From positions 1-64,000 of IMG/VR virus record IMGVR_UViG_2519899680_000008: 64,000 bases of DNA, one strand, 5' to 3'. Origin of the DNA: a virus (lineage: Duplodnaviria > Caudoviricetes). The first letter of the stretch is position 1, and each line of letters starts with the position of its first letter. The notes beneath the pieces were generated by a model. That model saw nothing but the letters and a program-made list of their open reading frames with translations, ran no database searches and was not told the origin of the DNA. Shown in pieces: positions 1,794-56,300 of the stretch. The position numbers and the translations under genes are program-made.

Positions 1794-2089
1794 TCCTCCT
1801 TTTGTGAAAGAGTAGCCTGTTTTTCCCCCGGAGGTTTTATGAATTCCGATTTCTCCGCGATAAGCTGTTCGACGAGCGCTTCATAGAACACATCGGCAAG
1901 GGCGTTGGCACACGCCTCCGCATCCGCCAATGAATTGATAAGCCGCAGGTTGAACTTGATTTCGAGGTCATATCCCGATATGACCGCCATCAGCTCGTTC
2001 CCGTCATACCCCAAAGCCCCGTAGGTCATCCGGTCTGCCGTCTTGAAAGTGATGGTTTCCGGAATTTGTTTCTGTGTCTCCTGTGCCAT
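1790..2089 (-). CDS. Hypothetical protein (99 aa)
   Basis: Co-oriented, ATGA overlap with terS. Confidence 0.7.
   Translation of the reverse strand: MAQETQKQIPETITFKTADRMTYGALGYDGNELMAVISGYDLEIKFNLRLINSLADAEACANALADVFYEALVEQLIAEKSEFIKPPGEKQATLSQKEE
1808..1837 (-). promoter_or_regulatory. Putative phage-sigma promoter (AAACC-N17-CTACTCTT) for terS/lysis genes
   Basis: One of 12 copies of the bipartite motif. Confidence 0.7.
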
Positions 2090-2104
2090 TTTATTATCCC
2101 GTTG

Positions 2105-2869
2105 TCATATTTTGAAATGGTTGCGGGTCTTTTCTTTCTTCTGTATCATCCCGCTTTTCCCCTCCATGTTCCGCAGCCTGGACGTGTAGACGCCCAATAT
2201 GTCGAGCGTGGCGGTCACGTCCGCATCCGCGTCATGGGCATCGTCCAGTTCCACTCCCAACCGGGAGGCGACCAGTTCCAACTTGTAGGATGTCACTTCC
2301 GTATCGTCCGCAAAGGCAAGCCGTCCCAGGAAAAGCGTGTCGATATAGTGCGGCTGGAAATTCCCGTAATAGTCCCTTGTCCCGGCAAAGATCTTCTCGA
2401 ATTCCGTGACTAACCCGGCATGGTTCATCATCTGCTGCAGGAATCCGATATCGAAGGGGGCATTCTGCCCGATGAGCACCGGCTTGTACCGGCTGCCTTT
2501 CGACAGCGTGCTCCCCCTGGCAAACCCGATGACCTCTTCCGCCACTTTCCGTATATCCGCGCCCTTGGCATCCAGCAGTTCCATCGTGATGCCCGAATAG
2601 TCCAAGGCCGCCTGCTCGTATTTCATGGGTGCCTGTTCCATCCTTGCCTGTTCGTGCCGGGTACGGAGCACCTTGCGGTGCACGGTGTCGGCATTCTGCC
2701 TGCAGTACGGCGCTATATACGACTGGTAGCGGTCGAATACCTGCCACGTGTCGAAACGGACCGCCTGCAACGCGATCTGGGTGCAGGCACATTCCCGGCA
2801 GTCCAGCCCTCCGGTCTCGAAATCCATCCCGATACCCGTAAAAATCTTCTGTTCTGTGTTCGTTGCCAT
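2105..2869 (-). CDS. DEDDh 3'-5' exonuclease (DNA polymerase III epsilon-like)
   Basis: ExoI DFETGG, ExoII GQNAPFDIGFL, ExoIII AHDADADV; start reassigned to the ATG at 2869, just after the dnaE-C stop. Confidence 0.9.
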   Translation of the reverse strand: MATNTEQKIFTGIGMDFETGGLDCRECACTQIALQAVRFDTWQVFDRYQSYIAPYCRQNADTVHRKVLRTRHEQARMEQAPMKYEQAALDYSGITMELLDAKGADIRKVAEEVIGFARGSTLSKGSRYKPVLIGQNAPFDIGFLQQMMNHAGLVTEFEKIFAGTRDYYGNFQPHYIDTLFLGRLAFADDTEVTSYKLELVASRLGVELDDAHDADADVTATLDILGVYTSRLRNMEGKSGMIQKKEKTRNHFKI

Positions 2870-2873
2870 AATT

Positions 2874-5051
2874 TCAGGATTGAATGAATAAAAGGGAATT
2901 CTTGTAGGTCTGCAAAGTGTTGCAGCCGTTATAGTCGCTGTAACGTATGACTGCCGTGAGAATGACGACCTTGTCCTTGAGCGACTGTACCTCGGCGCGG
3001 TGCTCCATGTACCAGTCATTCCAGCAGACGCATTCCGCCAGCCGGTTGTTCTGGGAAAGCGACAGCTTCGCAAACCGTCTGCTGCCGCCGGTCTCCCGGT
3101 CCTTATAGGTATGTTCCGACACGTCCACGACCGTTGCGCATACGGTTACCCTGCGCCCGTCGTTCTCGTCCTTGGACACCTCCTCCAACGAAAGGTAGGA
3201 AGCCTTTCCCTTGACTTTCTGCCGCGCGTCCGAACTGTCGAAAATCCTCCGGTAGTCGATGGAACCGATACCGGACACGGCTATCTGCTGCTGTGCCCAG
3301 AAGTAATGCCTGCCGCGCATCTCCCCGGGAAAGTCCTTCTCGGAAAGCGTAAACCCGAGCTCCCGTGCGGCACGTTCCAGCAGGGCGTACCTCTGGGTGA
3401 TTGCCCCGACTTTCTCTATCCTGTCGAAACAGCCTGCCAGGATCATGTTCCTCACGTGGCGTGCATTCACCGGCACCTTCACCGCCTCGTCCGGGTTGTC
3501 CGGGTCGTCCCAGTAGCGGTATTTCTTCAGCTTGTACCGGAAGACCCGGTGGATGAAATTCTCGATGCTGTCATAATCTCCGCCCCTTGTCCGCTCCGCG
3601 ACGATATGCTCCACGGTCTTCACACCGACCTGCCTGATACGGGTCAGCGACCAGAATATTTCACCGGCGGCATAGTCGGTGAAGAACTCCGCTCCGGAGC
3701 GGTTGATGTCCGGCGGGACGATCCGGGCCGCGGAACAGCGCTCCATCTCCGACATCAGGGGCGGTATTTCCCTGTCGTCCGCCCATTGCAGCGCCACCGT
3801 ATAGAACGCCGACGGGAAATTCGCCTTGAGCCATGCCCCGCAATAGGCGGTCAGCGCATACGCGGCGGCATGGCTGCGGTTGAACGAGTACTTGCCTGCA
3901 ACCTCAATCTTGTGCCATATCTCCTCGGCTTCGTACTCCGGACACCCGTTCCCGACCGCCCCGGAAATGAAATCCGCTTTGAGCGTGGCCATCAGGTCCG
4001 CCTTTTTCTTGCCTATCGCCTTGCGCAGCAGGTCGGTCTTCCCGAGATCAAAGCCCCCGAGCGTGTGTGCCACGGACATGAACTGCTCCTGGTAGACCAT
4101 GATGCCGAAGGTATTCCTCGTCGCTTCATGGCACCCGTAGTTATAGACCGGGGCTATCTCGCCACGACGGAAGCGAATATAGTTATCCGTCGCCCCGATA
4201 TCCAGCGTGGCGGGGCGGTAAAGGGCGTTGACGGCTATCAGGTCCTCGATATTCTCCGGCTGCACGTCCTGTATGAAACGGGTAATGCCGGGAGACGAGA
4301 ACTGGAAAACGTTCTGCGTGTTGCCCTCGGAGAGCAGACGGTAGGTCTTTTCATCCTCCAGTTTATCCCGCGTGATACATTCGATGGAAAGCCTCTCCCC
4401 GAAATGCTCGTTGGCCAAGGAGATGACCGCGCTGAGTTTGGCGAGTTCCTTGGTCGCGAGCACGTCCTCCTTGAGCAGCCCGATCTCGTCCACTGAATAG
4501 CCGTCGAACTCCGAGACCAACGCGCCGTCCGTCTTGCGGATGGGCAGGTAGTCGAAACATTCCGTCGGCACGCCGTCCCGTGTCTCGGGAGTGACGATGA
4601 TGGCGGAGGCATGGACGGATGCCGACCTGGGCTGTCCCAAAAGCACCCGGACCTCCTCGATGACTTCGGGATACGCCTGTATGAAGTCCCGGAGTCTGCG
4701 GTTTGCCGATGCTGCCATGAAAAGCCCGGTCCAGTCCGTCCCGTCCTCTATCATGGCAGTGACATAGTTCACGGTGGAATGGGGTACGCGGTGTACGCGG
4801 GCGACATCCTTCAGCGCGGCTTTCAGCTTCATCGTGGTGAATGTCCCGGCGGAGAAGACCCGCTGTCGCCCGCCCACGTTGTAGCGTTCCTCCAGATAGT
4901 CCTTGATTTCCTGCCTCCGGTCCGAGGCGTAATCGACATCTATGTCCGGAAGCGATGCATGCCCGCCTTCCGCCAGCCCCCGGTCCACGAAGGAGTCCAT
5001 CACCTTCAGGGGCCGGTCCGTAGTCTTTATCTTTACATGTGTAACTTTCAT
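2874..5051 (-). CDS. dnaE: DNA polymerase III alpha, C-terminal fragment, preceded by a 32-aa intein-C-like leader
   Basis: PDIDVDY catalytic motif, HASAIIV, GLLKEDVL, VFQFSS, YQEQFM, YSFNRSHAAAY, HhH and OB-fold regions. Confidence 0.93.
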   Translation of the reverse strand: MKVTHVKIKTTDRPLKVMDSFVDRGLAEGGHASLPDIDVDYASDRRQEIKDYLEERYNVGGRQRVFSAGTFTTMKLKAALKDVARVHRVPHSTVNYVTAMIEDGTDWTGLFMAASANRRLRDFIQAYPEVIEEVRVLLGQPRSASVHASAIIVTPETRDGVPTECFDYLPIRKTDGALVSEFDGYSVDEIGLLKEDVLATKELAKLSAVISLANEHFGERLSIECITRDKLEDEKTYRLLSEGNTQNVFQFSSPGITRFIQDVQPENIEDLIAVNALYRPATLDIGATDNYIRFRRGEIAPVYNYGCHEATRNTFGIMVYQEQFMSVAHTLGGFDLGKTDLLRKAIGKKKADLMATLKADFISGAVGNGCPEYEAEEIWHKIEVAGKYSFNRSHAAAYALTAYCGAWLKANFPSAFYTVALQWADDREIPPLMSEMERCSAARIVPPDINRSGAEFFTDYAAGEIFWSLTRIRQVGVKTVEHIVAERTRGGDYDSIENFIHRVFRYKLKKYRYWDDPDNPDEAVKVPVNARHVRNMILAGCFDRIEKVGAITQRYALLERAARELGFTLSEKDFPGEMRGRHYFWAQQQIAVSGIGSIDYRRIFDSSDARQKVKGKASYLSLEEVSKDENDGRRVTVCATVVDVSEHTYKDRETGGSRRFAKLSLSQNNRLAECVCWNDWYMEHRAEVQSLKDKVVILTAVIRYSDYNGCNTLQTYKNSLLFIQS

Positions 5052-5590: not shown

Positions 5591-5593
5591 TGT

Positions 5594-6367
5594 CTATAAT
5601 ACATGGTTGGTTATCCTTTCTCCTGCCGTGCGGAAGATTTCGCGGTCTATCTCTATCCCTATGAAGCGCCGTCCCGTATTCCTGCACGCGATGGCGGTAC
5701 TCCCGCTGCCCATGGCGAAGTCGAGGACGAGGTCCCCTTCATCGGTGTATGTCCTTATCAGGTATTCCAGCAGGGCCACGGGTTTCTGCGTGGCGTGCAG
5801 GCAGGAAAGCTGCTTGTCCGTCTTGAATTTCAGCACGCTGCGCGGATAGCGTTCCGTGGAGATATAGTCCCGGTACTTGTCATGTTTCCGGTAGATTTCC
5901 CCCGCGTCGCATTTGTGCTGGTGTACGGCAAGGATGACCTTCCGCTTGTGCCCGTCGGTCTTGATCGGGTTGTATTTGGGAAGCCTGTCATAGAAGACGA
6001 GGATGTCCTCGTGCGCCTTCATCGGCATGCGTTTCGCGTTCAGGAATCCGGTCGCCTGCGTCTTCTCCCAGACCCAGGCGTAGCGCAGCCTGCCGAGGTT
6101 TGAGCCTCCCAGGACGCTGGTAAACGGCTGCTGGCAGAAAAGCAGCACGGGTGTCTTCTGTCCGGAAACCTCCCGGACGGCCTTCCACATGCGGGGGATA
6201 TCTATCACGGAATCCCACCGGCAGTGCGTCGTCCCGTAAGGCGGGTCGGACAGTACCATGTCGGCAATGATGCCGCTGGCGGCAAGCCGGGGCAGTACCT
6301 CCAGGGCATCTCCCCGGTAAAGGTCGCATCCCTCATAGGGACGCAGGTGTTCGCAGTTCTGATTCAT
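5594..6367 (-). CDS. DNA N6-adenine/N4-cytosine methyltransferase (beta class)
   Basis: DPPY catalytic motif precedes HATQKP and LDFAMGSGST SAM-binding motif; ATG 6367 preferred over TTG 6376. Confidence 0.92.
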   Translation of the reverse strand: MNQNCEHLRPYEGCDLYRGDALEVLPRLAASGIIADMVLSDPPYGTTHCRWDSVIDIPRMWKAVREVSGQKTPVLLFCQQPFTSVLGGSNLGRLRYAWVWEKTQATGFLNAKRMPMKAHEDILVFYDRLPKYNPIKTDGHKRKVILAVHQHKCDAGEIYRKHDKYRDYISTERYPRSVLKFKTDKQLSCLHATQKPVALLEYLIRTYTDEGDLVLDFAMGSGSTAIACRNTGRRFIGIEIDREIFRTAGERITNHVL

Positions 6368-8090
6368 CGGCTTCAAGTTCCTTTAAGTTCCACAGGCAAT
6401 CTCGGCGGTCGAAAAGGATTTCATCGCCACAAATCAATTCATCGGCATATATTGTCTTTTCCGCATCCTTGCGGATTATCCGCAGCCGGGCATCCGGACT
6501 GATGCGGTAGGTCTTGTCCCCGGACTTTATCTCTACATAGCGTTCCCCTTTTTCAAGCAGGAGATCCGGAGCCAGTACCGTCAGCTCGTCTTTCCAGCTC
6601 AGCCCGCAGCGTTCCGGCACAAGGAAACGCGAGAAGATAAGCCCGTATTTCAGCGGGTCGATGGAGGTGATACCGAGCAGGTATGACACCAGGGAGCCTC
6701 CCGCGGAGCCGCGCCCGATGCCGGTGGCAATGCCCCGGCGCCTTGCTTCCCGCACCATGTCCCACTGCACGAGGAAATAGTCCACGTTGTCCGTCGATTC
6801 GATGATATAGACCTCCTCGTCCAGCCGTTCCCCATAGCGTTCCCTTTCCTGTTCCGGGACTTTCTCACGCATTCCCTCATCGAGCAGGCGGAGGAACATC
6901 GTCCGTCGGTTCCCGTACCGTTCCCGTTCCCCGTCCCGCATCCTGTATTCGGGCATGAACATGCGTCCCGTCTCGAAGGCGGCTGTCGCTTTTTCCGCGA
7001 TCTCGACCGTCGGGCGGCACATGCGCCTGAACAGCCTGTCGAAATCCCACTTGTCGGAAAACAGGGGGCGTAACGTCTCGTAATGCTCGTCCACGCTCTT
7101 GTAGTACTGGTCATCGCTCTGCTCGTGCGCCGCCCCCGAAGCTATCTTGTTCAGGACGGTCTTCGAGAAGGCATCGTCCTTGTCCGGGTAATGGCAGTCC
7201 GCAATGAGAATGGGAGCCACGGGAAAAGAATCCGTCCGGTCGTCATGGCTTTCGAAATAGTACCGGAGGGCTTCGAGGTTTTCCCGGTCTATACGGTCGG
7301 CCTTGTACTCGCAGGCATCCACCTGGTAATAGACCGCCTCGAAACCCTGCCGCAGCCGTGCGACCTGCCGGGGATGGGAGAGCATCCAGTAGGAGGAACG
7401 GGTGGAGAAGATCAACACGCATCCGGCGGCATACGCCAGCAGCTGCTCATATCGGAGCGTCCTGTCCTCCGAGCCCACCATGACGGCACGCTGTATGCGG
7501 AGCAGGTTGCGGAGACCGTCATTGCCGAGGGCATAGACTTTCAACCCGACTTTCCCGTCCGGGTGTGCCATGTCGAGGGAATACCCGAACACGTGCTTCA
7601 GTCCCGCCTTGGCGCATTCCTTCTGGAAGTTGAGCGTGGCGGCCATCGTGTTGCGGTCGCAGATACCGATGGCCGTGTGTCCCAGCCACCGGGCCTTGCG
7701 GCACCACTCTTCCAGAGCCCCGGAAGCGTTCAGCAGCTCGTACGGGGTATGGATGCCGAGGTTTACGAAAGGGATGTCGTGCACGGGAGGTTTCGGACGT
7801 CCGATATGTTTCAGGATATTGAACCTGAAATCCTCCCGCAGGTCGTAGTAGTACCAGTTCTTTCCGAAGGGGAATGCCACATGGCGGATACCTTCTTCCA
7901 GCAGTACCTCCGGGGTTTCCATCAGGTTGAACACGGGCCTGCCGCCTTCATTCCTGAAAACGGAGTCCACGCCGGAGAGGTCGGCCAGGAACAGCCGTCC
8001 GAATTCCGGGATGTCCACTACCTCCGTGTCCACGGGCATATATGAAATGGACTGGCTGTCGAGCCAGGCCAGCAGTTCGTTCATCATCAT
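6333..8090 (-). CDS. dnaE: DNA polymerase III alpha, N-terminal fragment (PHP + part of palm), ending in a 91-aa intein-N-like tail
   Basis: PHP motifs, DYFLVQWD, GRGSAGGSLVSYLLGIT, IDPLKYGLIFSRFLVPER, then CGLSW... Confidence 0.92.
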   Translation of the reverse strand: MMMNELLAWLDSQSISYMPVDTEVVDIPEFGRLFLADLSGVDSVFRNEGGRPVFNLMETPEVLLEEGIRHVAFPFGKNWYYYDLREDFRFNILKHIGRPKPPVHDIPFVNLGIHTPYELLNASGALEEWCRKARWLGHTAIGICDRNTMAATLNFQKECAKAGLKHVFGYSLDMAHPDGKVGLKVYALGNDGLRNLLRIQRAVMVGSEDRTLRYEQLLAYAAGCVLIFSTRSSYWMLSHPRQVARLRQGFEAVYYQVDACEYKADRIDRENLEALRYYFESHDDRTDSFPVAPILIADCHYPDKDDAFSKTVLNKIASGAAHEQSDDQYYKSVDEHYETLRPLFSDKWDFDRLFRRMCRPTVEIAEKATAAFETGRMFMPEYRMRDGERERYGNRRTMFLRLLDEGMREKVPEQERERYGERLDEEVYIIESTDNVDYFLVQWDMVREARRRGIATGIGRGSAGGSLVSYLLGITSIDPLKYGLIFSRFLVPERCGLSWKDELTVLAPDLLLEKGERYVEIKSGDKTYRISPDARLRIIRKDAEKTIYADELICGDEILFDRRDCLWNLKELEADESELRTPASL

Positions 8091-9127
8091 TTTTCCTGTA
8101 CCTTGTTGAGTTTGTATTCGAGGACGGTCTGGAGCCTGCGGGAGAAAATTTCCTGAATTTCTTCCCCTGTCAGTTCATCCCAGTCCCTGCGCGCGTCCGC
8201 CATGTCCGCGACAAGCACGTCAAAATAGGGTTTCAGCCGTTCCGCTGTCTGTTTGACGGCTGTCACGGCATCCCCGTCGTAACCGACGACCACCGTCCCG
8301 ACGCCTTTGCACTGCAGCTTGTATATCTGGACGTCCGAAATCTTCTTTCCGAAAGTGGCTATGGCCGCCACATGCGGGTTGTCGTAGAGTTCCAGCTTGC
8401 GGGTCAGGGCGATGGTATCGAAAATGCCTTCTGTAAGGATAACCGTGCCGGTTTCTCCCATGTGGATGGCATCGTAGTTATAAAGCAGTTTGGAAAAGTC
8501 GTTGCCGGTCGAGTTCCTGTACCGGAGAATCTTGTACTCCCCGTTGTGCCTGGCTTTCCGGTTATAGGCGTCGATATCTTCCTTTGGCCACGTATGGCGA
8601 GCGACATAACCGACGGTTTCTCCTTCATCCATGACAGGAAACAGTACATAGTCGGCATAGCGTGGATTGAGCTTGCCGGTCGTCCCGACAGGAAAATACT
8701 CGTAGTCATCGAAGCAGAAACCTCTTTTTTGCAGGTACGGGTGCAGGAAAATCCGCTTATAGAAATCCGGCAGGGAAACGGCGGTCAGGGAGTCGTCCAG
8801 TTCCTCCGCTTCCTGCTGTCCAGTCAGATGCAGCTCCAAAGGGGCGGAGATATCTGCGGTCCGTGTGACCATCAGGTCCATCCGGCCGATGGCTTCCAGC
8901 AGCTGTTCGAGCGTGCGGGTGGAAGCCCCGCAGGAAAAGCAGTGTGACATGAAAGGAGTGCGGCGGGAGGTTCCCTTTCCGATGTAGATACCGAACTTGC
9001 CTCCCGTCTTGCCGCAGAACGGGCAGCGGGGCACAATCAGGTTTTTGCCCCCGCCGTCCTGTTTCGCTCCCGTTTCCCGGGCTATCTCCGAAACCAGATA
9101 CCTGTGTTCCTGTAATGACAGTTCCAT
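8087..9127 (-). CDS. DNA primase (Zn finger + TOPRIM)
   Basis: CPFC...HCFSC zinc finger; ILTEGIFD and VGYDGD TOPRIM motifs; start reassigned to ATG 9127. Confidence 0.85.
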   Translation of the reverse strand: MELSLQEHRYLVSEIARETGAKQDGGGKNLIVPRCPFCGKTGGKFGIYIGKGTSRRTPFMSHCFSCGASTRTLEQLLEAIGRMDLMVTRTADISAPLELHLTGQQEAEELDDSLTAVSLPDFYKRIFLHPYLQKRGFCFDDYEYFPVGTTGKLNPRYADYVLFPVMDEGETVGYVARHTWPKEDIDAYNRKARHNGEYKILRYRNSTGNDFSKLLYNYDAIHMGETGTVILTEGIFDTIALTRKLELYDNPHVAAIATFGKKISDVQIYKLQCKGVGTVVVGYDGDAVTAVKQTAERLKPYFDVLVADMADARRDWDELTGEEIQEIFSRRLQTVLEYKLNKVQEK

Positions 9128-9131
9128 ACTA

Positions 9132-9162
9132 AGGTATAGTGCCGGTTCCTGCAGCAAGGTTT
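9132..9162 (-). promoter_or_regulatory. Putative phage-sigma promoter (AAACC-N18-CTATACCT) for primase/dnaE
   Basis: Variant copy of the bipartite motif, 4 nt from the ATG. Confidence 0.55.
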
Positions 9163-9812: not shown

Positions 9813-9842
9813 TTTGGTACTTAGAATCTTTTACTACCTTTG
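9813..9842 (+). promoter_or_regulatory. Bacteroidetes sigma-A type promoter (TTTG-N18-TACCTTTG)
   Basis: Matches the -33 TTTG / -7 TAnnTTTG consensus. Confidence 0.65.
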
Positions 9843-9848
9843 CAACAT

Positions 9849-9898
9849 TAGAACCTGCCAAGCCTCTTAACAATGCTCAAATCGGCGGGTCGTTTTTT
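9849..9898 (+). ncRNA. Small structured RNA, possibly abiF-like motif
   Basis: ACCTGCC/GGCGGGT stem enclosing AAGCCTCTTAACAATGCTCAAATC, then a U-tract, directly after a promoter; family call from recollection only. Confidence 0.35.
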
Positions 9899-10333: not shown

Positions 10334-11689
10334 TCATTCCCTGTTCAGTCCCAATGACCGCTTCCCGTCGTAGAAGACCTCGTTGTCATAGTCCGTGGCA
10401 ATCTTGATGGTGTCCCCCTTCTTGAAGAAACGGCTCTTGGCCACGTGCAGCCGCATCACGTTCTCTTTCCGTTCCGCCGATGACTGGTTGAGCGAAATCA
10501 GGTGGGTACACGGCCGTGCCAGCCCTTTCGCCTCCGAACAGTTGTACTCGGTCAGCACGTTCCTCTCGTCATTGAGCCACTCCCTGTCCTCGATGGTGGA
10601 CTGGTATGTAACCACGATCCATACTTTCTCGTCAGCGGCGAGGTCTTTCAGGTCATTGGCCACGGCAATACGTTTCGCCCGTTCATGGTCCGCTCCCCAT
10701 GAACGGCGGTTGGCATCCGTCAGCAGGTCCATCGAATCCACGATCACGATGTCCGGGTTATGCCCTTTGAGCTTGCGGTATTCCGAAATCCCGTTCTTGA
10801 TGTCGAGGGTGGACACCTGCGCGTTGAAACGCGGATAGCTACGCACGGTGATGCTTCCCGCGTAGGAGGCGACCAGCTTTTCAAGGTGCCGCATTTCCGT
10901 GTCCGAAATCTTTCCTCTCTCGAAATAGTAGGCGTTCCGGGAAATCAGCCCTCCCGAATAGGCGTTCAGCGCCTCGTCCTCCGAACCCTCCAACTGGAAA
11001 TGCAGCACATGCAGCCCGTCATCGATGTTCGCACGTACCCCTATCCATTTGGCGATATGGGATTTTCCCACTCCCGTGGAGGCCAGGAAGCAGGTCAGCT
11101 GTCCCCGCAGGTTCCTTCCCGCATTGAGTGCATCCAGGTACGGGATATAGAAACGGGACACTCGGGGCGAGGCGGAGCGTTCCTCTTCCTCCTCCCTGCG
11201 CCTGTTCCGTTCGAAGCGCTCCGTGAAGGTCTCTGCCACATCGATGAAAGACGAGCTTTTCAGCGTGAATCCCGACAGCCATTCGGCATACTCCCTGAGC
11301 GTCTTTTCCGCCTTGTCCTGCCGGTTCTCGTTATACAGCCTGCCGACCTCGGCATAGACCGCCTGCAGCCGGACTCTCTTGATGTAGGATTCCAGCATGT
11401 CGGTCATCACTTCGGCGCTCTGCCCCTCGTCGTATTCCCTGAACGTGTCGATCAGCTCGATGGCATCGTAATCCTCCTGGAAAGTCTGTGTAAGGACAGC
11501 GTATGACGGAGGGGACTTGTAGGTGCGGAAATGGACGGCGATAGCCTCCTGTACCCGCTGGAAGGAACGGTCCGGAAGGTACTCCTTGCGCATGTGGCGG
11601 GAGAGGACGGCACACAGAGGCTCCTGCCTGAGTGCCGTGGCGTAGAGCTCGTACAGGAACTCGGCGCTAAGCGGGTTGGTCGTGCTCAT
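10334..11689 (-). CDS. dnaB: Replicative DnaB-like helicase
   Basis: Walker A ASTGVGKS, HFQLEG, Walker B IVIVDSMDLL, VTYQS, VAKSR. Confidence 0.88.
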   Translation of the reverse strand: MSTTNPLSAEFLYELYATALRQEPLCAVLSRHMRKEYLPDRSFQRVQEAIAVHFRTYKSPPSYAVLTQTFQEDYDAIELIDTFREYDEGQSAEVMTDMLESYIKRVRLQAVYAEVGRLYNENRQDKAEKTLREYAEWLSGFTLKSSSFIDVAETFTERFERNRRREEEEERSASPRVSRFYIPYLDALNAGRNLRGQLTCFLASTGVGKSHIAKWIGVRANIDDGLHVLHFQLEGSEDEALNAYSGGLISRNAYYFERGKISDTEMRHLEKLVASYAGSITVRSYPRFNAQVSTLDIKNGISEYRKLKGHNPDIVIVDSMDLLTDANRRSWGADHERAKRIAVANDLKDLAADEKVWIVVTYQSTIEDREWLNDERNVLTEYNCSEAKGLARPCTHLISLNQSSAERKENVMRLHVAKSRFFKKGDTIKIATDYDNEVFYDGKRSLGLNRE

Positions 11690-12303
11690 GGCCGTGCCTC
11701 CTTTTTCAGCCAGGCTTCACACCGCAGGCGGAACAGTTCCGGGTAGATGGCCTCCGTCCGCCGGCGGCATTCTCCGGACCTCCGGCACTTGCCGCATGAG
11801 GGAGAAAAGGGTGTCCAGAGCAACGTGGAAAGGGCACAAACGACATAGCCTGCCTCGGTGGAGAGCAGGCGGCGCTTGGTCCTTTCCTCGTATTCGGGAT
11901 AGATGAAACGGTCGAGCGGATGACGGCTCCGGTCGATGACCATGCCCGCCAGGGCGGGCCTTGAAAGCCCGTGGCTTTCAAGCCAGCGGTCTTCATGGTA
12001 CCTGCGTCCCTTTCCGGAACACAGATAACGGCGGACAGCCTTTTCCCCGAAGGAATGCGAGACATTCCACCGCCGGCGGTAAGACGTCCCGTATCCGGAC
12101 AGGGTATATGCCTGGCAGATACAGAAATCCGCCAGGCGTTCCCCGCTGACGGACACGACCTCCCGGCACAGGAGGTCGAAGCATGTCCCCAACTGCCTCC
12201 CGCCCCGTCCCCCGGCGGGAAAAGTGAAATCCGCCCACACGGCAGCGCGGACAAGCCGGGCAAAGAGCCTGCGGCAACCGTCAATCCACTCTTTTCTCTC
12301 CAT
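11686..12303 (-). CDS. Hypothetical protein (205 aa, Cys-containing C-terminus)
   Basis: Overlaps the sigma stop and helicase start, co-oriented. Confidence 0.65.
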   Translation of the reverse strand: MERKEWIDGCRRLFARLVRAAVWADFTFPAGGRGGRQLGTCFDLLCREVVSVSGERLADFCICQAYTLSGYGTSYRRRWNVSHSFGEKAVRRYLCSGKGRRYHEDRWLESHGLSRPALAGMVIDRSRHPLDRFIYPEYEERTKRRLLSTEAGYVVCALSTLLWTPFSPSCGKCRRSGECRRRTEAIYPELFRLRCEAWLKKEARP

Positions 12304-12895
12304 CCTCTGTCAGAAGTTTACGCAGCTGCGCCTTGGCCAGGAACAGGCGGCTCTTGACCGTCTCGATGTTCAGTGTCCGGAGCGTGCCGTTACGGTACGT
12401 GATTTCCATGATTTCCCCGATCTTGTAGCCGGCCTGCTGGAGCAGGAAGGCTTCGCGGTAGATAGGTTTCAGACGGTCGAGCGCCCACAGGATAGCGTCG
12501 TTGTAGAACTCCCGGTAATTGTCCATCCCCATCCTGTTTCCCGAAGGTTCCGTCTCGTCGAGCAGCGAGGAGGACACCTCCCGTATGTCCACGTTCTCGT
12601 CTGCCGGCAGGCGGTTCCTGTTCCGGTTGTTCAGGTCGGCTATGAGCCGTTTCGTCACGGCATATATCCATGTCTTCACGGGACGCTCCGGGTTGTAGCT
12701 GTCCATGTACTTGAAAAAGTTCGCGAGAGCCTCTATATAGTTGTCCTCGATGTCCTCCCGGTTATAGGTGTACTTGATACAGATACTGTATATCAGGTTC
12801 CTGTGCGGCATCACATGTTTTTCCAGGAGTGCCGCCCTCCGCCTTACGGACTCCTCCGATGAGGAGTCCGCCCCTAAGATGTTTTTCTTTTCCAC
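12281..12895 (-). CDS. Phage-encoded ECF-type sigma-70 factor
   Basis: Region 2 (IYSICIKYTYNREDIEDNYIEA...KTWIYAVTKR) and region 4 (ALDRLKPIYREAFLL...ETVKSRLFLAKAQL). Confidence 0.9.
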   Translation of the reverse strand: MEKKNILGADSSSEESVRRRAALLEKHVMPHRNLIYSICIKYTYNREDIEDNYIEALANFFKYMDSYNPERPVKTWIYAVTKRLIADLNNRNRNRLPADENVDIREVSSSLLDETEPSGNRMGMDNYREFYNDAILWALDRLKPIYREAFLLQQAGYKIGEIMEITYRNGTLRTLNIETVKSRLFLAKAQLRKLLTEDGEKRVD

Positions 12896-13014
12896 ACTTT
12901 CACTGACTGAAAAGATTGATACTGAATCTGGTGTCCTAATCTGTCAGCTACGGTGAGCATCATTTTACAATCTTACGGTTTCATCATGTACGGCAGCGTT
13001 TTTCAGCCTGTCCC

Positions 13015-24276: not shown

Positions 24277-24306
24277 AAGAGTAGCCGGATTTTCCTGTCC
24301 GGGTTT
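24277..24306 (-). promoter_or_regulatory. Putative phage-sigma promoter (AAACC-N17-CTACTCTT)
   Basis: Bipartite motif copy. Confidence 0.7.
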
Positions 24307-25112: not shown

Positions 25113-25142
25113 AAGTATAGGCCGTCGAGGCGTGAATGGTTG
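25113..25142 (-). promoter_or_regulatory. Putative phage-sigma promoter (CAACC-N17-CTATACTT)
   Basis: Bipartite motif copy. Confidence 0.65.
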
Positions 25143-29970: not shown

Positions 29971-30000
29971 AAGAATAGGTGGAAAAAACGGCAGCCGTTT
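29971..30000 (-). promoter_or_regulatory. Putative phage-sigma promoter (AAACG-N17-CTATTCTT)
   Basis: Bipartite motif copy. Confidence 0.65.
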
Positions 30001-36240: not shown

Positions 36241-36270
36241 AAGAATAGGCAATGCGGAAACGGATTGATT
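36241..36270 (-). promoter_or_regulatory. Putative phage-sigma promoter (AATCA-N17-CTATTCTT)
   Basis: Bipartite motif copy, 5 nt from the ATG. Confidence 0.6.
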
Positions 36271-43764: not shown

Positions 43765-43794
43765 AAGAATAGAAGGAATGGAAAGGAGGAGATT
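43765..43794 (-). promoter_or_regulatory. Putative phage-sigma promoter (AATCT-N17-CTATTCTT)
   Basis: Bipartite motif copy. Confidence 0.65.
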
Positions 43795-44486: not shown

Positions 44487-44516
44487 AAGCATAGAGGAAA
44501 AACGGGAGAAAGGATT
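44487..44516 (-). promoter_or_regulatory. Putative phage-sigma promoter (AATCC-N17-CTATGCTT)
   Basis: Bipartite motif copy. Confidence 0.6.
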
Positions 44517-48627: not shown

Positions 48628-49173
48628 TCAGCGGAGCTTCTTGAACTTGAAGTCGCTGCCGACCACTTCCGCCACCTTTTCCGCCATCAGCTGCTCGGCA
48701 GTCTTGGCGGTATCTGTCGCGGACTGTATGTTGGCAGGGTCTTCCGCGATTTCCTTGGAAATCTTCTCCCTGGCAGGAATGGACGCCAGCGTGCTCTCTG
48801 CCAGCTCAAAATTGGAGCCGGCCATCTCCACCCACTGCGCCTTTGCCTCGCGGTCGATTTTTCCCTCGTTGATGGCGTTCTCCACCAGCGTCTCGATGCG
48901 TGCAGCCTGCTCGTCCTTCTCCTTCTGTTCATAGGCGGAAAGGCGGGACGTGGCGGTCGCCAGGTCCTTCTGCAGGTTTTGGATGGCGGCATCCTTTCCC
49001 GCGATCACGGTCTGCGCGTCGCTCAGGGACTTCTGCGCTTCCTTGTACTTGGTCTCTATGGCCGCAAGCTCCGATATGCGTGCCATCACGTCCTTGACCT
49101 CCTTGTCCTGCATGCCTAAAGAAGCGGCTATCGCTCCGTATTCGATACCTTGTGTCTTGTTCTCGTTTGCCAT
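48628..49173 (-). CDS. Nested in-frame scaffold protein (MANENKTQ..., 181 aa)
   Basis: Internal ATG preceded by a consensus phage promoter motif at 49192-49221. Confidence 0.6.
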   Translation of the reverse strand: MANENKTQGIEYGAIAASLGMQDKEVKDVMARISELAAIETKYKEAQKSLSDAQTVIAGKDAAIQNLQKDLATATSRLSAYEQKEKDEQAARIETLVENAINEGKIDREAKAQWVEMAGSNFELAESTLASIPAREKISKEIAEDPANIQSATDTAKTAEQLMAEKVAEVVGSDFKFKKLR

Positions 49174-49872
49174 ATTGTCTTCTGTTTCTCTAAGAGTAGG
49201 TGCAGGCGGGATAAAAAGTTTGTTCTCGTCGCAGACGCGGCTCATCAGCTCCTGGATAGCGGTGGTATCGGTCAAGGCGGAAACCTGGTCGTGTACTCTC
49301 TCGCACAACTGTTTCGAGGTACGGATGACATTCCCGGCAGGGATGATACCCGCCTTGACGGCTGCTGCCGCATCGAAATACGTTCCGTCCTTTCCGGCTT
49401 CCCCGTCCATGATGGACCTGACATGTTCCGCCTTCAGCCCGAAGCGTTTCCGGTATATGGTTTCAATCTGGCGGGTGAAAGCCCTGACCATGTCCGAGGC
49501 TTCCCCGTCGCCCTCACCGTCCGGCAACATGGGATTATGTATCATCAGGATGGCATAATCCCTCATGAGAGACCGTCTGCCTGCCGCCCAGATGATCGAT
49601 GCCATGGAAGCCGCCACTCCTTCGATGATACATTCCGTGTCGGTCTTGGAGTTGGCGATGGTGGAATAGGTGGACATTCCGTACAGCACGCTGCCCCCTT
49701 CCGAATTGATCAGTATCCTGATGCAGGACGGGCGTATCACGTTCTCCAGGAAATCGAACTCCTCGTTGAAACGCGAGGTGCTCTCTTCCGTTACCCTTCC
49801 GAAAAAGCGGATGACGGCCGGTTCTCCGGCCTTCACCTCGCCAACGACGTATTGAAGCGTGTTCACATCCAT
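48628..49872 (-). CDS. ClpP-like head maturation protease fused to a scaffold domain
   Basis: INSEGGSV, GVAASMASII, LMIHNP; coiled-coil C-terminal half. Confidence 0.88.
   Translation of the reverse strand: MDVNTLQYVVGEVKAGEPAVIRFFGRVTEESTSRFNEEFDFLENVIRPSCIRILINSEGGSVLYGMSTYSTIANSKTDTECIIEGVAASMASIIWAAGRRSLMRDYAILMIHNPMLPDGEGDGEASDMVRAFTRQIETIYRKRFGLKAEHVRSIMDGEAGKDGTYFDAAAAVKAGIIPAGNVIRTSKQLCERVHDQVSALTDTTAIQELMSRVCDENKLFIPPAPTLRETEDNMANENKTQGIEYGAIAASLGMQDKEVKDVMARISELAAIETKYKEAQKSLSDAQTVIAGKDAAIQNLQKDLATATSRLSAYEQKEKDEQAARIETLVENAINEGKIDREAKAQWVEMAGSNFELAESTLASIPAREKISKEIAEDPANIQSATDTAKTAEQLMAEKVAEVVGSDFKFKKLR
49192..49221 (-). promoter_or_regulatory. Intragenic putative phage-sigma promoter (AAACT-N17-CTACTCTT)
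   Basis: Bipartite motif copy inside the protease CDS. Confidence 0.65.
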
Positions 49873-49891
49873 ATAGAATTATCTTTTGTGC

Positions 49892-49921
49892 AAGAATAGG
49901 AACGTCGCGTGAAGAAAGTTG
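49892..49921 (-). promoter_or_regulatory. Putative phage-sigma promoter (CAACT-N17-CTATTCTT)
   Basis: Bipartite motif copy. Confidence 0.7.
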
Positions 49922-51376: not shown

Positions 51377-52229
51377 ACCGGGATTTCAGGCGGGCGACCG
51401 TTTCCTTGACGTGTTCCGGCAGAGGTAGGGAGAAGTACCTGTGCGCGTCGGAGAATATCCGCCCCCCAGTTGCGAGACTCTCCCTGAATACGGGGTCTGT
51501 CATCCGGCGGACGCCCCTGTTCACAGCCGAAGCATGGACGGAAGCAAAACCGTTGGAGACCAGGAAGCAGCGGCATCCCCAGTCGATAGGCGGAATCAGC
51601 TCGGGAGGGAACTCGGACTTGCGGAAAGAGACCCCCTCGAGGGAAAGGTGCAGCGCGCGGACGCGCTCGTCGCCCTGTGTCATGTACGTGATGACGGAAT
51701 CACCATCCACCGTAATCCACCAGGCAGCCATCGCTGCGGCGAAAAACACCTGGCCGTTCTCCTGTTCCGCATAGGTGAGATTGTACCGCTCGCAGATATC
51801 TTCATACTCGGGCAGCCTGTCCCCGTCAGGTTCGTCCGGCAGTTCCCTGTACATGGAGTATTCTTCCGCGGCGGCAAAGTCTATCAGGTTCTCTACCGCA
51901 GCAACGAGGATCTCCCGCTGCTGCCGTTCCCGTTCTGTCATCGCCCCGTTATGGTTTCTGAGAATATCCAATGCCCGGTCGAAGTCCATCCTGAACCCGC
52001 TCAATGCCCTATCTATCAGAAAGGAGGCCCGCAGGGTGATGATGTCCTCCAGCAAGTCCCGCCTTTCCGCACTGTCTTCCCAGTGCCGGACGAGCCTGCG
52101 GAATGCCTTGAGGATGATACGGTATTCCTTTCCGGTGTCCGTTTCGTCTTTTTCCCTGTCCTTGCCTGTTTCCGTTCGGCCTTCCGGGAGCGGAAGCCGG
52201 GCCGTTATTCCGCTCCCGTGAGAAAATTT
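51351..52229 (-). CDS. Minor head protein (Mu gpF/SPP1 gp7-like); frame open back to the portal slippery site
   Basis: YMTQGDERVRALH, PPIDWGCRC; no ATG/GTG/TTG upstream of TTG 52055 although the frame is open to 52229. Confidence 0.75.
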   Translation of the reverse strand, partial: KFSHGSGITARLPLPEGRTETGKDREKDETDTGKEYRIILKAFRRLVRHWEDSAERRDLLEDIITLRASFLIDRALSGFRMDFDRALDILRNHNGAMTERERQQREILVAAVENLIDFAAAEEYSMYRELPDEPDGDRLPEYEDICERYNLTYAEQENGQVFFAAAMAAWWITVDGDSVITYMTQGDERVRALHLSLEGVSFRKSEFPPELIPPIDWGCRCFLVSNGFASVHASAVNRGVRRMTDPVFRESLATGGRIFSDAHRYFSLPLPEHVKETVARLKSRFAYAQDNA

Positions 52230-53518
52230 AGCACCCTGGTGCCGCGTGAACGCCCGTACCTGCGGAAATACTCCTCGTCCGACATGATATGCCTGTCACC
52301 GGAACTTCCGCCATGGGAAGCGCCACCATACCCTCCGGGAAGCACGTTCAGCTGTTTTCCCACGTTGATGCCGAATTCCTTTTCAATCTCGTCCGCCGCA
52401 ACCTCGTACTTGTCCGTGATAAGCGAATAGAGCTTGATACGGTCCTCGTTGCACATCTCGATGCGGTTGGAGTATTTGAATTCCAGCCCGTCCTCGATAT
52501 ACCCCATGGCCACCAGCCGGGGAACCACCTTCTCGTTCATCACGTTCTCGATATAGCGCCTGTACACCTCTATGCGGTCCCGGAAAATATCCTGGTGCGC
52601 CTTGGTGGAGCCCACGTACGACTGCATGCCGCCCGCCATGGATTCCGAGCCGAGAACCAGGTTTGACACCTCCTTGTTGACGAAGTCTATCAGGCCCGTG
52701 TAGATCTTTTCCGAATTGGACATCGTGAAAGTCTTGATATCCACTTCATCCTCGATACCCGTCACCACAACCTTGTTCTGCGCGGCATTGGCTATCTCGT
52801 TGGCCAGGCGCTTGCGGTCCGCGTTGCTCTCGCTGACCGTCTTCCCGTGGATGACAGGTTGCCCGTACGTGTGTGAAAAATTCACATAGTTGGCCACCGT
52901 GAACTTCTTGGCGAGGATAAGCGGTGTCGTCGCGGAAAAAAGCCCAAGGTCACCGGAATCGACCAGCACATAGTTCCTCCGGTAGGACGGGTTGCGCAAA
53001 TCCCAGTGCGGCATCCACATGCCCTGACGTTTCAGCACGACGAGCTGGTCGGGCAGCACGTTGCGCCGCTCTATGGTGTTCACTTCGGCCAGTTTTCCGG
53101 TTTTGGGGTCTGTCGCGGGCATGATTTCCAGCAGCGTGTACCCGTACAGCTTGGACTCCACGATGCCCTTGATGATTTTGTCGAACTGAGACCCCTGTAT
53201 TTTCTGGGTCTGGCGGATATCCTTGACATATTTCCCCTTCTCGTTGACGCGGGCCAGCATGTAGCGGTCCCCGAGTATCTGGCTTTCCAGCGTCTCGATG
53301 ACCGACCGTATGTGCGCGTCCTGCTGAAGACAGGCTTCATACAGGTCTATCAGCCTCGACCGGTCATCGAGTATGCAGCCGGCCTCCACATCGCTGCGGC
53401 AGGAACGGTAACGGTTGTTCCGCTCGATTTCACGGACGTACTCCTGGATGGTTTTCTTGGAAGTCCTGAAGATACTTTCCAGCAGTTCCCCGTTGAATGA
53501 ATGATCCGATGTCGCCAT
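52205..53518 (-). CDS. Portal protein (Mu gp29/DUF935-like)
   Basis: DAHIRSVIE, LYGYTLLEI, FSHTYGQP, NKEVSNLVLG. Confidence 0.82.
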   Translation of the reverse strand: MATSDHSFNGELLESIFRTSKKTIQEYVREIERNNRYRSCRSDVEAGCILDDRSRLIDLYEACLQQDAHIRSVIETLESQILGDRYMLARVNEKGKYVKDIRQTQKIQGSQFDKIIKGIVESKLYGYTLLEIMPATDPKTGKLAEVNTIERRNVLPDQLVVLKRQGMWMPHWDLRNPSYRRNYVLVDSGDLGLFSATTPLILAKKFTVANYVNFSHTYGQPVIHGKTVSESNADRKRLANEIANAAQNKVVVTGIEDEVDIKTFTMSNSEKIYTGLIDFVNKEVSNLVLGSESMAGGMQSYVGSTKAHQDIFRDRIEVYRRYIENVMNEKVVPRLVAMGYIEDGLEFKYSNRIEMCNEDRIKLYSLITDKYEVAADEIEKEFGINVGKQLNVLPGGYGGASHGGSSGDRHIMSDEEYFRRYGRSRGTRVLNFLTGAE

Positions 53519-53538
53519 TGCCTCCGATATTTTTTATA

Positions 53539-53568
53539 AAGAGTAGCCGTCCTACCGGAACATGGTTT
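53539..53568 (-). promoter_or_regulatory. Putative phage-sigma promoter (AAACC-N17-CTACTCTT) for the portal operon
   Basis: Bipartite motif copy. Confidence 0.7.
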
Positions 53569-53754: not shown

Positions 53755-53762
53755 TATCTTTG
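53755..53762 (+). promoter_or_regulatory. Host-type -7 element TATCTTTG of the divergent regulatory operon
   Basis: TAnnTTTG in an AT-rich intergenic region. Confidence 0.55.
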
Positions 53763-53803
53763 CGCGGCAAATTCTCCATATACAAAATTATAATTATGAC
53801 AAA

Positions 53804-55720: not shown

Positions 55721-55722
55721 AC

Positions 55723-56160
55723 ATGGAGACGGCGTTACAGAGAATCATACGTCAGACAGGGCGTGAGCCCGTGGAATGCGGGTGCGCCTTGTGCCGGCAG
55801 CAGTGCCGCACGCCGTGTCTCGGCACACCGGAGAATATCCTCCGGCTCATACATGCCGGGTATAAAGAGCGGCTGGCGCCCACCTTGTGGTGCGTCGGCA
55901 TGATACTCGGACGTATCGCCTATCCCGTATACATGGTCCAGGCCAGAGGGGAGAAGGACGGGTGTGTGTTTTTTCACGATGGCCTCTGCGAACTGCACGG
56001 GACCGGCATGAAACCCACAGAGGGGCGGCTGTCCTACCACACCATTACCGGGGAGAACCTGGAATTCGGGCGGTCACTTTCCTGGAACGTGGCCAGAGAA
56101 TGGCTGGATGAAAGGAACCGGCCGGTCATACGGGAGATAGTCAGGCTGATGACGGGGTGA
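55723..56160 (+). CDS. Cys-rich (YkgJ-like cysteine cluster) protein
   Basis: CGCALCRQQCRTPC and GCVFFHDGLCELH...KP. Confidence 0.55.
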   Translation: METALQRIIRQTGREPVECGCALCRQQCRTPCLGTPENILRLIHAGYKERLAPTLWCVGMILGRIAYPVYMVQARGEKDGCVFFHDGLCELHGTGMKPTEGRLSYHTITGENLEFGRSLSWNVAREWLDERNRPVIREIVRLMTG

Positions 56161-56269
56161 TGGAGAGCGCGACCCGGTGAAACCGGAACACCGTTATAGC
56201 GTAATATTAACTGTTAATTCCTCTTCGGTACGGTTTCACGGGTCTGCCTCCATTAATTCATACCATTTC

Positions 56270-56300
56270 CAACCTGTTCATATCAATCGGCACTATACTT
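56270..56300 (+). promoter_or_regulatory. Putative phage-sigma promoter (CAACC-N18-CTATACTT)
   Basis: Only plus-strand copy of the motif noticed. Confidence 0.55.

What the first reader, a model, noticed from the sequence alone, without database searches (positions are those of the whole stretch)
1808..56300. A phage-specific bipartite promoter (12 copies) matching a phage-encoded ECF sigma factor
Seen: MAWCN-N17(18)-CTAYDCYT lies just upstream of start codons at 1808-1837 (terS), 9132-9162 (primase), 24277-24306, 25113-25142, 29971-30000 (fibre), 36241-36270 (spike), 43765-43794 (tape measure), 44487-44516 (chaperone), 49192-49221 (internal), 49892-49921 (protease), 53539-53568 (portal) and 56270-56300 (+ strand). 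Ten of the twelve have a 17-nt spacer. The motif differs from the host TTTG/TAnnTTTG promoter, which is used by the morons and early genes. Known: ECF sigma factors often read an AAC-containing -35 element. Inference: the sigma factor at 12281-12895 drives a middle/late regulon. This would be an orthogonal sigma/promoter pair in Bacteroidales and potentially a useful synthetic-biology part.
Basis: partly seen in the sequence, partly recalled or inferred. Interest (0 to 1): 0.82.

Follow-up and report, generated by a model that had tools for sequence, protein, structure and literature searches.

The report
Phage sigma-factor promoters, Bacteroides prophage
A roughly 100-kb prophage of a gut Bacteroides carries its own two-box promoter in front of its virion, packaging, primase and integrase genes, most likely read by the single ECF-type sigma factor the phage encodes. 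This is a known kind of phage gene switch, shown here to be conserved across a large family of gut phages.

Summary
All 12 reported sites exist at the stated coordinates, and there is a 13th at 63753-63782. Shuffles give about 0.45 expected. Every site lies 4-32 nt upstream of a co-oriented ATG.

The motif recurs at orthologous positions in a second, about 75%-identical prophage of the same genome. It also recurs in more than 100 related phage contigs, including the cultured Bacteroides phage BS-TP1. Only the two boxes (AAC[C/T]TT and CTAYTCTT) and their spacing are conserved there; spacers and flanks have diverged.

In 4.7 Mb of host DNA the motif occurs at chance level. The only strong copies outside the prophage bodies precede the prophages' own integrase and DUF5675-terminase genes.

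The gene at 12281-12895 is the only sigma in the prophage. It is ECF-type and unlike the other 17 sigma-type genes in the genome. Every relative of 80% or higher estimated completeness that was checked has a homologue.

The kind is known (phiEco32 gp36, SPO1 sigma cascade). This scan had already reported the same arrangement on other DNA (e1-5326331, e1-5865589). I found no paper describing it for Bacteroidales phages.

The parts
1808..1837 (-). Promoter copy, 14 nt before the ATG of the small terminase (1275-1793)
   Evidence: orthologous copy at C1:162670 and in sigma-centred relatives
9132..9162 (-). Promoter copy with +1 spacing, 4 nt before the ATG of the primase (8087-9127); near-leaderless
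   Evidence: orthologous copy at C1:169987; conserved downstream of sigma in relatives
24277..24306 (-). Promoter copy, 21 nt before a 232-aa ORF (23557-24255)
25113..25142 (-). Promoter copy, 19 nt before a 105-aa ORF (24776-25093)
29971..30000 (-). Promoter copy, 14 nt before a 1594-aa tail/fibre protein (25172-29956)
36241..36270 (-). Promoter copy, 5 nt before a 300-aa ORF (35333-36235); near-leaderless
43765..43794 (-). Promoter copy, 20 nt before the tape measure gene (39923-43744)
   Evidence: conserved in distant clades
44487..44516 (-).
49192..49221 (-). Promoter copy inside the protease gene, 18 nt before an in-frame ATG at 49173 (C-terminal 181 aa, scaffold-like)
   Evidence: the internal copy is retained in clades with sigma 42-67% identical
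49892..49921 (-). Promoter copy, 19 nt before the head maturation protease (48628-49872)
   Evidence: footprint over 35 distinct orthologous upstream regions
53539..53568 (-). Promoter copy, 20 nt before the portal gene (52205-53518)
56270..56300 (+). Promoter copy with +1 spacing, 32 nt before a 77-aa ORF (56333-56566)
63753..63782 (+).
   Evidence: orthologous copy at C1:227339 with the same boxes and a changed spacer loop
12281..12895 (-). ECF-type sigma factor (204 aa, GTG start); the proposed reader of the motif
   Evidence: Pfam Sigma70_r2 plus r4_2, and TIGR02937 at 58.3 bits against a cut-off of 42.9; only sigma in the prophage; best PDB match is the ECF SigH; 80% identical paralogue in the second prophage
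11686..12303 (-). 205-aa ORF overlapping the sigma stop; conserved next to sigma in BS-TP1 (gp6); function unknown, not a recognisable anti-sigma
   Evidence: no Pfam or NCBIfam hit; only phage-specific unnamed clusters in the Atlas; synteny
12896..12975 (-). Unique conserved element upstream of sigma (TTGACGCTCAC..AGCTGACAGATTAGGACA), preceded by a terminator-like hairpin in relatives; probably the sigma operon's own, different promoter
   Evidence: alignment of 27 distinct upstream regions; single copy in the window; no significant RNA fold

Best explanation
The motif is a phage-specific promoter. Host core RNA polymerase carrying the phage's own ECF-type sigma factor (12281-12895) would bind the -35 box (A/C)AAC(C/T)TT through sigma region 4. 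It would bind the box CTAYTCTT, 17-18 nt downstream, through region 2.

Transcription would start at or just after the end of that box. The leaders are short and A-rich, and in two cases almost absent.

The sigma gene sits in the replication module behind its own, different upstream element. It would therefore be made first. It would then switch on about fifteen units per prophage:
- primase/DnaE
- small terminase
- DUF5675 plus large terminase
- integrase
- portal, protease and an internal scaffold transcript
- tail, tape measure and fibre genes
- a few plus-strand genes

Shown: the motif, its positions, its conservation, its restriction to the phage, and the nature and uniqueness of the sigma.

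Inferred: that this sigma reads this motif, the start sites and the timing.
For: Enrichment and position:
- 13 copies against about 0.45 expected, all 4-32 nt upstream of co-oriented ATGs.

Phylogenetic footprint:
- In 35 distinct protease-upstream sequences, only AAC(C)TT, CTAYTCTT, their spacing and an A-run are conserved.
- Related loci hold 305 gene-strand against 17 opposite-strand matches.
- The motif is kept at orthologous portal, protease, internal-scaffold and tape-measure positions in clades with sigma at 42-67% identity, and in BS-TP1.

Phage-restricted:
- Host DNA (4.71 Mb) has 12/4/1/0 PWM hits at thresholds of 16/18/20/22 bits. Markov simulations give 5-12, 2-5, 1-4 and 0-1.
- The four strong hits outside the prophage bodies precede the integrase and DUF5675-TerL genes of the phage's own module. 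They are conserved there in about 50 distinct relatives.

Sigma:
- r2 plus r4 domains at 204 aa, above the ECF model's cut-off.
- Only sigma-domain gene in each prophage.
- No tblastn similarity to host sigmas.
- Recognition helix NIETVKSRL invariant in the family.
- Homologue present in all 4 relatives of 80% or higher completeness that were tested.

An AAC -35 box with about 17 nt spacing is the hallmark of ECF promoters (established knowledge).

Precedent: phiEco32 sigma gp36 and its middle/late promoters (PMC4281155, PMC4331800).
Against: - There are no transcription start, binding or expression data.
- Sigma and motif are both family-wide, so their co-occurrence does not discriminate between candidate readers.
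- I found no relative with one but not the other.
- An 8-nt invariant -10 region is long for an ECF promoter. It partly resembles the Bacteroides primary-sigma -7 box (TAnnTTTG against TAYTCTT).
- No anti-sigma partner and no autoregulatory copy upstream of sigma were found, unlike most bacterial ECF systems.
- No clear sigma/-35 co-variation: the BS-TP1 clade uses TCACCC/TTCCCC variants at +2 spacing in some promoters, yet has nearly the same region-4.2 helix.
Confidence: 0.8

Rival explanations
1. The host's primary sigma reads the -10-like box, and a phage-encoded DNA-binding activator bound to the AAAC(C)TT box replaces -35 recognition. This would be sigma appropriation or activation, as at T4 middle promoters (MotA/AsiA) or Mu late promoters (protein C). 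The phage sigma would then serve some other purpose.
For: TAYTCTT differs from the Bacteroides -7 box TAnnTTTG at few positions, and the box-to-box distance is similar (own knowledge of the Bacteroides consensus; sequences). The phage has many unannotated small ORFs. An earlier scan note (e1-4050545) describes such an upstream-box plus host-box layout in other Bacteroidales phages.
Against: The C before TA and the C replacing the first T of TTTG are invariant in hundreds of copies, and the final G is absent. This is a distinct specificity rather than a weak host box. The upstream box is a short AAC element at sigma-like fixed spacing, with no dyad or repeat. The phage carries a family-wide ECF sigma that would otherwise have no detectable target: there is no host regulon.
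Confidence: 0.1
2. The motif is a promoter, but it is read by another factor. Candidates are one of the host's roughly 16 ECF sigmas induced on infection, or an unrecognised phage sigma-like protein.
For: The genome encodes 17 further sigma-type genes. The phage has many ORFs without any family match.
Against: A host ECF sigma would be expected to have at least its own autoregulated promoter with this motif, yet host DNA shows only chance-level hits. The motif is stable across phages of several host genera: Bacteroides, Parabacteroides, Phocaeicola and Dysgonomonas names appear among the sigma homologues. That fits a phage-borne reader better. No second r2 or r4 domain is present in the prophage.
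Confidence: 0.06
3. The motif is not a promoter. It could be an RNA-level signal (processing or translation) or a DNA site for packaging, recombination or replication.
For: The motif always lies close to start codons. Several spacers contain hairpins (24277, 29971, 63753).
Against: Two short boxes at fixed spacing with a freely diverging spacer are not what an RNA structure or a recombination site looks like. No Rfam family overlaps the sites. The upstream box lies 40-50 nt from the ATG, in intergenic DNA that often follows terminator-like hairpins. One strictly conserved copy lies inside a coding sequence, just before an internal start.
Confidence: 0.03

Closest known systems
Coliphage phiEco32 sigma gp36 (and Salmonella phage 7-11 / SU10) with its middle and late promoters
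   Same: A phage-encoded small sigma annotated as ECF-type redirects host core polymerase to a phage-only consensus placed before middle and late genes. The sigma gene itself lies in the early/middle region (PMC4281155, PMC4331800).
   Different: - No meaningful sequence similarity: the best pairwise segment is 40 aa at E = 0.004.
- The phiEco32 consensus is a single element (tAATGTATA) 6-8 nt upstream of the start. Here there are two boxes with a -35 AAC.
- The host phylum, phage type (a roughly 100-kb temperate tailed phage with tape-measure and baseplate genes, against a lytic podophage) and promoter number all differ.
- No gp79-like cofactor was identified here.
Bacillus phage SPO1 sigma cascade (gp28; gp33/gp34)
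   Same: Phage sigmas replace the host sigma to time middle and late transcription from bipartite phage-specific promoters (established knowledge; PMC13401047 abstract).
   Different: Here there is one sigma rather than a two-step cascade, the phage is temperate, and the promoter boxes are unrelated. Homology was not tested.
Bacterial ECF (group 4) sigma promoters, e.g. E. coli sigmaE and B. subtilis sigmaW
   Same: Two-domain sigma (r2 plus r4, no r3). The -35 box contains AAC followed by a T-rich stretch (compare GGAACTT). Spacing is rigid at about 16-18 nt. The best solved relative is the ECF SigH of M. tuberculosis.
   Different: The -10 region CTAYTCTT is longer than, and unlike, the usual CGT/TCTGA types. 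There is no recognisable anti-sigma and no autoregulation. The regulon consists of a virus's own genes.
Bacteroides primary-sigma promoters (-33 TTTG / -7 TAnnTTTG)
   Same: Similar box-to-box distance; TA at the start of the downstream box; short A-rich leaders without a Shine-Dalgarno sequence.
   Different: The upstream box is AAAC, not TTTG. The downstream box has an invariant C before TA and C in place of the first T, and lacks the final G. Only 2 full host-type matches occur in the prophage.

Membership tests
ECF (group 4) sigma-70 family sigma factor | Sigma region 2 domain | tested here: met
   PF04542 at residues 28-92, E = 8.3e-9, 35.6 bits against a cut-off of 24
ECF (group 4) sigma-70 family sigma factor | Sigma region 4 domain of the ECF type | tested here: met
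   PF08281 at residues 135-191 scores only 20.6 bits, below its 25.7 cut-off. However, the whole-protein ECF model TIGR02937 covers residues 24-194 at 58.3 bits against a cut-off of 42.9. The helix NIETVKSRLFLA matches the canonical ECF region 4.2 pattern and is invariant in the family.
ECF (group 4) sigma-70 family sigma factor | No region 1.1 and no region 3 (about 200 aa, short linker) | tested here: met
   204 aa. Only about 40 residues lie between the r2 and r4 matches, and there are no other domain hits.
ECF (group 4) sigma-70 family sigma factor | Cognate promoter with AAC in the -35 box and rigid spacing | tested here: met
   (A/C)AAC(C/T)TT lies 17-18 nt from the second box in 13 window copies and hundreds of family copies. 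That this sigma reads them is inferred.
ECF (group 4) sigma-70 family sigma factor | Co-encoded anti-sigma factor | tested here: inconclusive
   The overlapping downstream 205-aa ORF is conserved next to sigma but matches no family, and only unnamed phage clusters.
ECF (group 4) sigma-70 family sigma factor | Positive autoregulation from its own promoter type | tested here: not met
   There is no conserved motif copy upstream of sigma. A terminator and a different, unique conserved element lie there. The 7 matches at -141 in one sub-clade fall in the upstream coding sequence, before the terminator. This feature is common in ECF systems but does not define them.
Phage-encoded sigma switches (phiEco32 gp36 type) | Sigma gene carried by the phage, with a phage-only consensus before middle/late genes | tested here: met
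Phage-encoded sigma switches (phiEco32 gp36 type) | Sequence homology to gp36 | tested here: not met
   BLASTP against phiEco32 gp36 gives only a 40-aa segment at E = 0.004. The two are analogous rather than family members.
Phage-encoded sigma switches (phiEco32 gp36 type) | The sigma binds host core polymerase and initiates at the consensus | not testable with these tools
   Needs in vitro transcription or ChIP.
Bacteroides primary-sigma promoter | -7 box TAnnTTTG and -33 box TTTG | tested here: not met
   The invariant CTAYTCTT and AAAC boxes differ at conserved positions.

The most novel reading that the evidence does not exclude
One trans-acting, host-orthogonal phage sigma coordinates physically separated parts of a prophage. 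The same promoter drives the virion and primase operons in the roughly 96-kb body. It also drives the integrase and the DUF5675-large-terminase operon of an end module. In this genome, and in several related lysogens, that module lies tens of kb away from the body or on another contig. Excision, packaging and assembly would all be timed by one sigma. The pair would also be a ready-made orthogonal expression switch for Bacteroides, giving almost leaderless messages.
Probability: 0.3. Interest if true: 0.65.

Novelty: new member of a known kind. Interest (0 to 1): 0.45.

Why it matters
Transcription control in phages of gut Bacteroidales is almost unstudied, and Bacteroides has few orthogonal expression parts. 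This analysis provides several things:
- A sharply defined promoter consensus.
- Its probable sigma.
- A map of about fifteen transcription units per genome.
- A cultured relative, BS-TP1 on B. salyersiae BG8, in which the prediction can be tested directly.

It also improves the annotation of a widespread family of roughly 100-kb gut prophages. Operon starts, an internal scaffold transcript, and sigma-dependent integrase and terminase promoters can now be marked.

Tried and rejected
- **Unbiased hexamer enrichment.** I tested 113 crude upstream regions. The result was dominated by A/T-rich words and did not single out the motif. The gene map was too crude and the motif occupies too few of the regions.
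- **Host-type promoters.** Only 2 full TTTG-N-TAnnTTTG matches occur in 95.8 kb, and TAnnTTTG alone is not enriched. I cannot document which promoters serve the early genes.
- **Autoregulation of sigma.** None is conserved.
- **Element upstream of sigma as an RNA structure.** The fold z-score is 0.5, not significant, and the element is single-copy.
- **Anti-sigma identity of the downstream ORF.** No evidence.
- **Sigma/-35 co-variation between clades.** The BS-TP1 clade has TCACCC-type boxes at +2 spacing but an almost unchanged recognition helix. This is not informative.
- **Related phages with the motif but no sigma, or the reverse.** The next relatives in the phage collection have only about 23% portal identity and genomes of 24-40 kb, too distant to use.
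- **Homology to phiEco32 gp36.** None.
- **Literature.** I found no paper on this sigma or promoter in Bacteroidales phages. The BS-TP1 paper does not mention sigma or promoters.
- **Att cores.** Apart from a roughly 25-nt inverted similarity (TTGATTGATAAC..AGTTAGT), I could not define the att cores or explain the separation of the terminase module.


Full report
**1. The observation**

Shuffles give an expected 0.24, and none of 100 reaches 11. It occurs twice with one extra base, expected 0.21.

All 12 reported sites are at the stated coordinates. A thirteenth lies at 63753-63782 (+).

Eleven copies are on the minus strand within the minus-strand gene block (about 1.1-53.5 kb). Two are on the plus strand within the plus-strand block.

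Each copy is followed by an ATG opening a real ORF after 4-32 nt. The downstream genes are:
- the small terminase
- the primase
- a 1594-aa tail protein
- the tape measure
- the head protease
- an in-frame internal start in the protease gene
- the portal
- several unknown ORFs

CTAYNCYT copies that lack the upstream box lie in coding sequence without a nearby start. The unit is therefore truly bipartite.

**2. Replication outside the window**

The window is C12:18209-82208 of a 4.9-Mb genome with 47.7% G+C; the window itself has 55%. The host is probably Bacteroides uniformis or a close relative, because a flanking aldolase clusters at 90% identity or more with that species.

Genome-wide, the pattern gives 203 hits per Mb in the window and 12 per Mb elsewhere. 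There is one further cluster, on contig C1.

That cluster is a second, collinear prophage: C1:160881-262728 against C12:18222-113809, at 70-92% nucleotide identity. It has its own sigma, 80% identical. It carries 13 motif copies at orthologous positions: terS, primase, fibre, tape measure, chaperone, internal scaffold, protease, portal and the plus-strand gene. Their spacers differ.

In 80 protease-centred loci from IMG/VR (1.39 Mb), the pattern occurs 305 times on the gene strand and 17 times on the other strand.

I aligned the 35 distinct protease-upstream sequences on the start codon rather than on the motif. Only AAC(C)TT, CTAYTCTT, their spacing and a short A-run are conserved. The spacer and everything upstream are scrambled.

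Among 540 distinct CTAYNCYT seeds in the family, 40% have the -35 box at the right distance, against 3% by chance.

The same layout is kept in deeper clades with protease at 47-66% identity and sigma at 42-67%. It is also kept in the cultured temperate Bacteroides phage BS-TP1, whose sigma is 38% identical. The copy inside the protease gene, before the scaffold-like start, is kept there too.

In the BS-TP1 sub-clade, some promoters have TCACCC or TTCCCC in place of AAAC(C), set two bases further out.

**3. Restriction to the phage**

I built a weight matrix from the family copies and scanned the genome. It scores 15 sites at 20 bits or more inside the two prophage bodies and 6 outside.

Four of those six come as two paralogous pairs. 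They sit in front of a tyrosine integrase and in front of a DUF5675 gene followed by a large terminase and a gp122-like gene. The terminase is 58% identical to that of BS-TP1.

In relatives, this integrase-HU-DUF5675-TerL module abuts the terS end of the phage genome (L240, L242; the other orientation in L241). Complete DTR genomes of deeper clades contain it. These are therefore the prophages' own end modules.

The motif before DUF5675-TerL and before the integrase is conserved in about 50 and 15 distinct relatives respectively.

After removing all phage-related stretches, 4.71 Mb of host DNA has 12, 4, 1 and 0 hits at thresholds of 16, 18, 20 and 22 bits. Five third-order Markov simulations give 5-12, 2-5, 1-4 and 0-1. 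There is no host regulon.

**4. The sigma factor**

The ORF at 12281-12895 (GTG start) has a region-2 domain and an ECF-type region-4 domain. It passes the ECF superfamily model at 58.3 bits against a cut-off of 42.9.

Its only solved relative by sequence is the ECF SigH of M. tuberculosis.

It is the only gene with a sigma r2 or r4 domain in either prophage. The genome has 17 others. None of them is similar enough to be found by tblastn at 1e-3.

Homologues number in the hundreds. Where named, they come from Parabacteroides, Phocaeicola and Dysgonomonas assemblies.

All four distant relatives of 80% or higher estimated completeness that I checked have a homologue. The one without is only 65% complete.

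The region-4.2 helix NIETVKSRL is invariant across the family. This fits the conserved AAC box.

**5. How sigma itself is expressed**

No conserved motif copy lies upstream of sigma. In relatives there is a terminator-like hairpin followed by a unique conserved element of about 60 nt, TTGACGCTCAC..AGCTGACAGATTAGGACA. The element is single-copy and has no significant fold.

Sigma therefore appears to be expressed from a different signal. It then acts on the motif. This is a cascade rather than an autoregulatory ECF loop.

The overlapping downstream 205-aa ORF is conserved in synteny but has no recognisable function.

**6. Mechanism and start sites**

The best-supported reading is a sigma-70-family promoter read by the phage ECF sigma on host core polymerase.

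Two copies lie only 4 and 5 nt from their ATG (primase, and the ORF at 36235). The primase arrangement is kept in the second prophage. It gives leaders of roughly 0-30 nt that are A-rich, as is usual for Bacteroidetes translation starts (own knowledge).

The regulon is broader than 'late'. It includes the primase/DnaE operon, the integrase, both terminase subunits and a few plus-strand genes. One of these lies beyond the window, at C12:99824, before a methylase-helicase operon.

**7. Rivals**

- *Host primary sigma plus a phage activator on the AAAC box.* This is the main rival, because TAYTCTT resembles TAnnTTTG. Against it, the invariant C residues and the missing G argue for a separate specificity. 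The phage sigma would also be left without any target.
- *A host ECF sigma.* This is unlikely, given chance-level host hits and conservation of the motif across host genera.
- *RNA-level or recombination signals.* These do not fit two short boxes with a free spacer, and no Rfam family overlaps the sites.

**8. Comparison with what is known**

Phage-encoded sigmas with their own promoters are classical. SPO1 is one example. phiEco32 gp36, with the consensus tAATGTATA, is another (PMC4281155, PMC4331800).

The present sigma is not homologous to gp36 beyond superfamily level, and its promoter is bipartite and ECF-like.

I found no paper describing this for Bacteroidales phages. The BS-TP1 paper does not mention sigma or promoters.

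The scan itself has already reported the same arrangement on other DNA: e1-5326331, a roughly 107-kb Bacteroidales phage, and e1-5865589, CC-N18-CTATTCTT.

**Verdict**

- This is a new member of a known kind, of moderate interest.

Noticed in passing
G000 C1:107496-113335 and C3:46357-51113 plus C3:131914-133360 (outside the window): The integrase-HU-DUF5675-large terminase-gp122-like module of both prophages is not attached to the prophage bodies, and neither body has a TerL. In C1 it lies 47.5 kb from the terS end. The intervening DNA carries ankyrin-repeat, DUF5682/SWIM, integrase, Mutator transposase and fimbrillin-like genes. In C3 the module is itself split by an 80.8-kb insert that starts with another integrase. 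Four of five large related IMG/VR contigs (two provirus, two linear) also lack this TerL, whereas relatives L240 and L242 show it abutting terS. Whether this reflects nested mobile elements, a rearrangement or a split prophage is unresolved.
   Followed up: partly
L155:12222-12275 (C1:110221-110274) and about 50 relatives: Between the promoter and the DUF5675 start codon lies a short hairpin reaching almost to the ATG (TCGATAC..GTATCGA). Relatives keep it with different stem sequences (GATG..CATC, GGAT..ATCC). It may be a translational or stability element of the terminase operon leader.
   Followed up: no
L155:9570-9600 (C1:107571-107597) and relatives: Directly after the integrase promoter there are two direct repeats, CATGTAGGT-N4-TATGTAGGT, conserved as ATGTAG pairs in relatives. 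They are candidate integrase arm sites or an operator.
   Followed up: no
window 12896-12975 (-): A unique, strongly conserved element of about 60 nt lies upstream of the sigma gene. In relatives it is preceded by a GC-rich terminator hairpin. It is unlike both the phage motif and the host consensus.
   Followed up: partly
window 9813-9890 (+): One of only two full host-type promoters in the prophage (TTTG-N18-TACCTTTG) sits 11 nt upstream of an Rfam abiF RNA match (9854-9890, 60 bits). It lies in the low-coding gap between the helicase and the primase.
   Followed up: no
window 61023-61431 (-): A Bacteroidales-2 RNA (RF02943) matches at 428 bits over its full length.
   Followed up: no
window 2874-5051 and 6333-8090 (-): DNA polymerase III alpha is encoded in two ORFs. 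PHP plus the N-terminal part of the NTPase domain are in one. The remaining NTPase part, the finger and the HhH domains are in the other. About 1.3 kb holding two other ORFs lies between them.
   Followed up: no
window 24277-24306, 29971-30000, 63753-63782: Several promoter spacers contain hairpins (CCGGA..TCCGG; ACGGC..GCCGT followed by a T-run; GGGGC..GCCCC). In the second prophage the last keeps its stem with a changed loop. Terminators may overlap the next promoter.
   Followed up: no
C12:99266-99760 (window-equivalent 81058-81552, beyond the window) and C1:246197-246691: A small (about 200-aa) tyrosine-recombinase-like gene lies inside each prophage body, immediately upstream of a further motif copy. 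That copy precedes a 319-aa ORF and a 998-aa methylase-helicase gene.
   Followed up: no
BS-TP1 clade loci L164-L177: Some promoters of this sub-clade replace AAAC(C) with TCACCC or TTCCCC placed two bases further upstream, while CTATTCTT stays invariant.
   Followed up: partly
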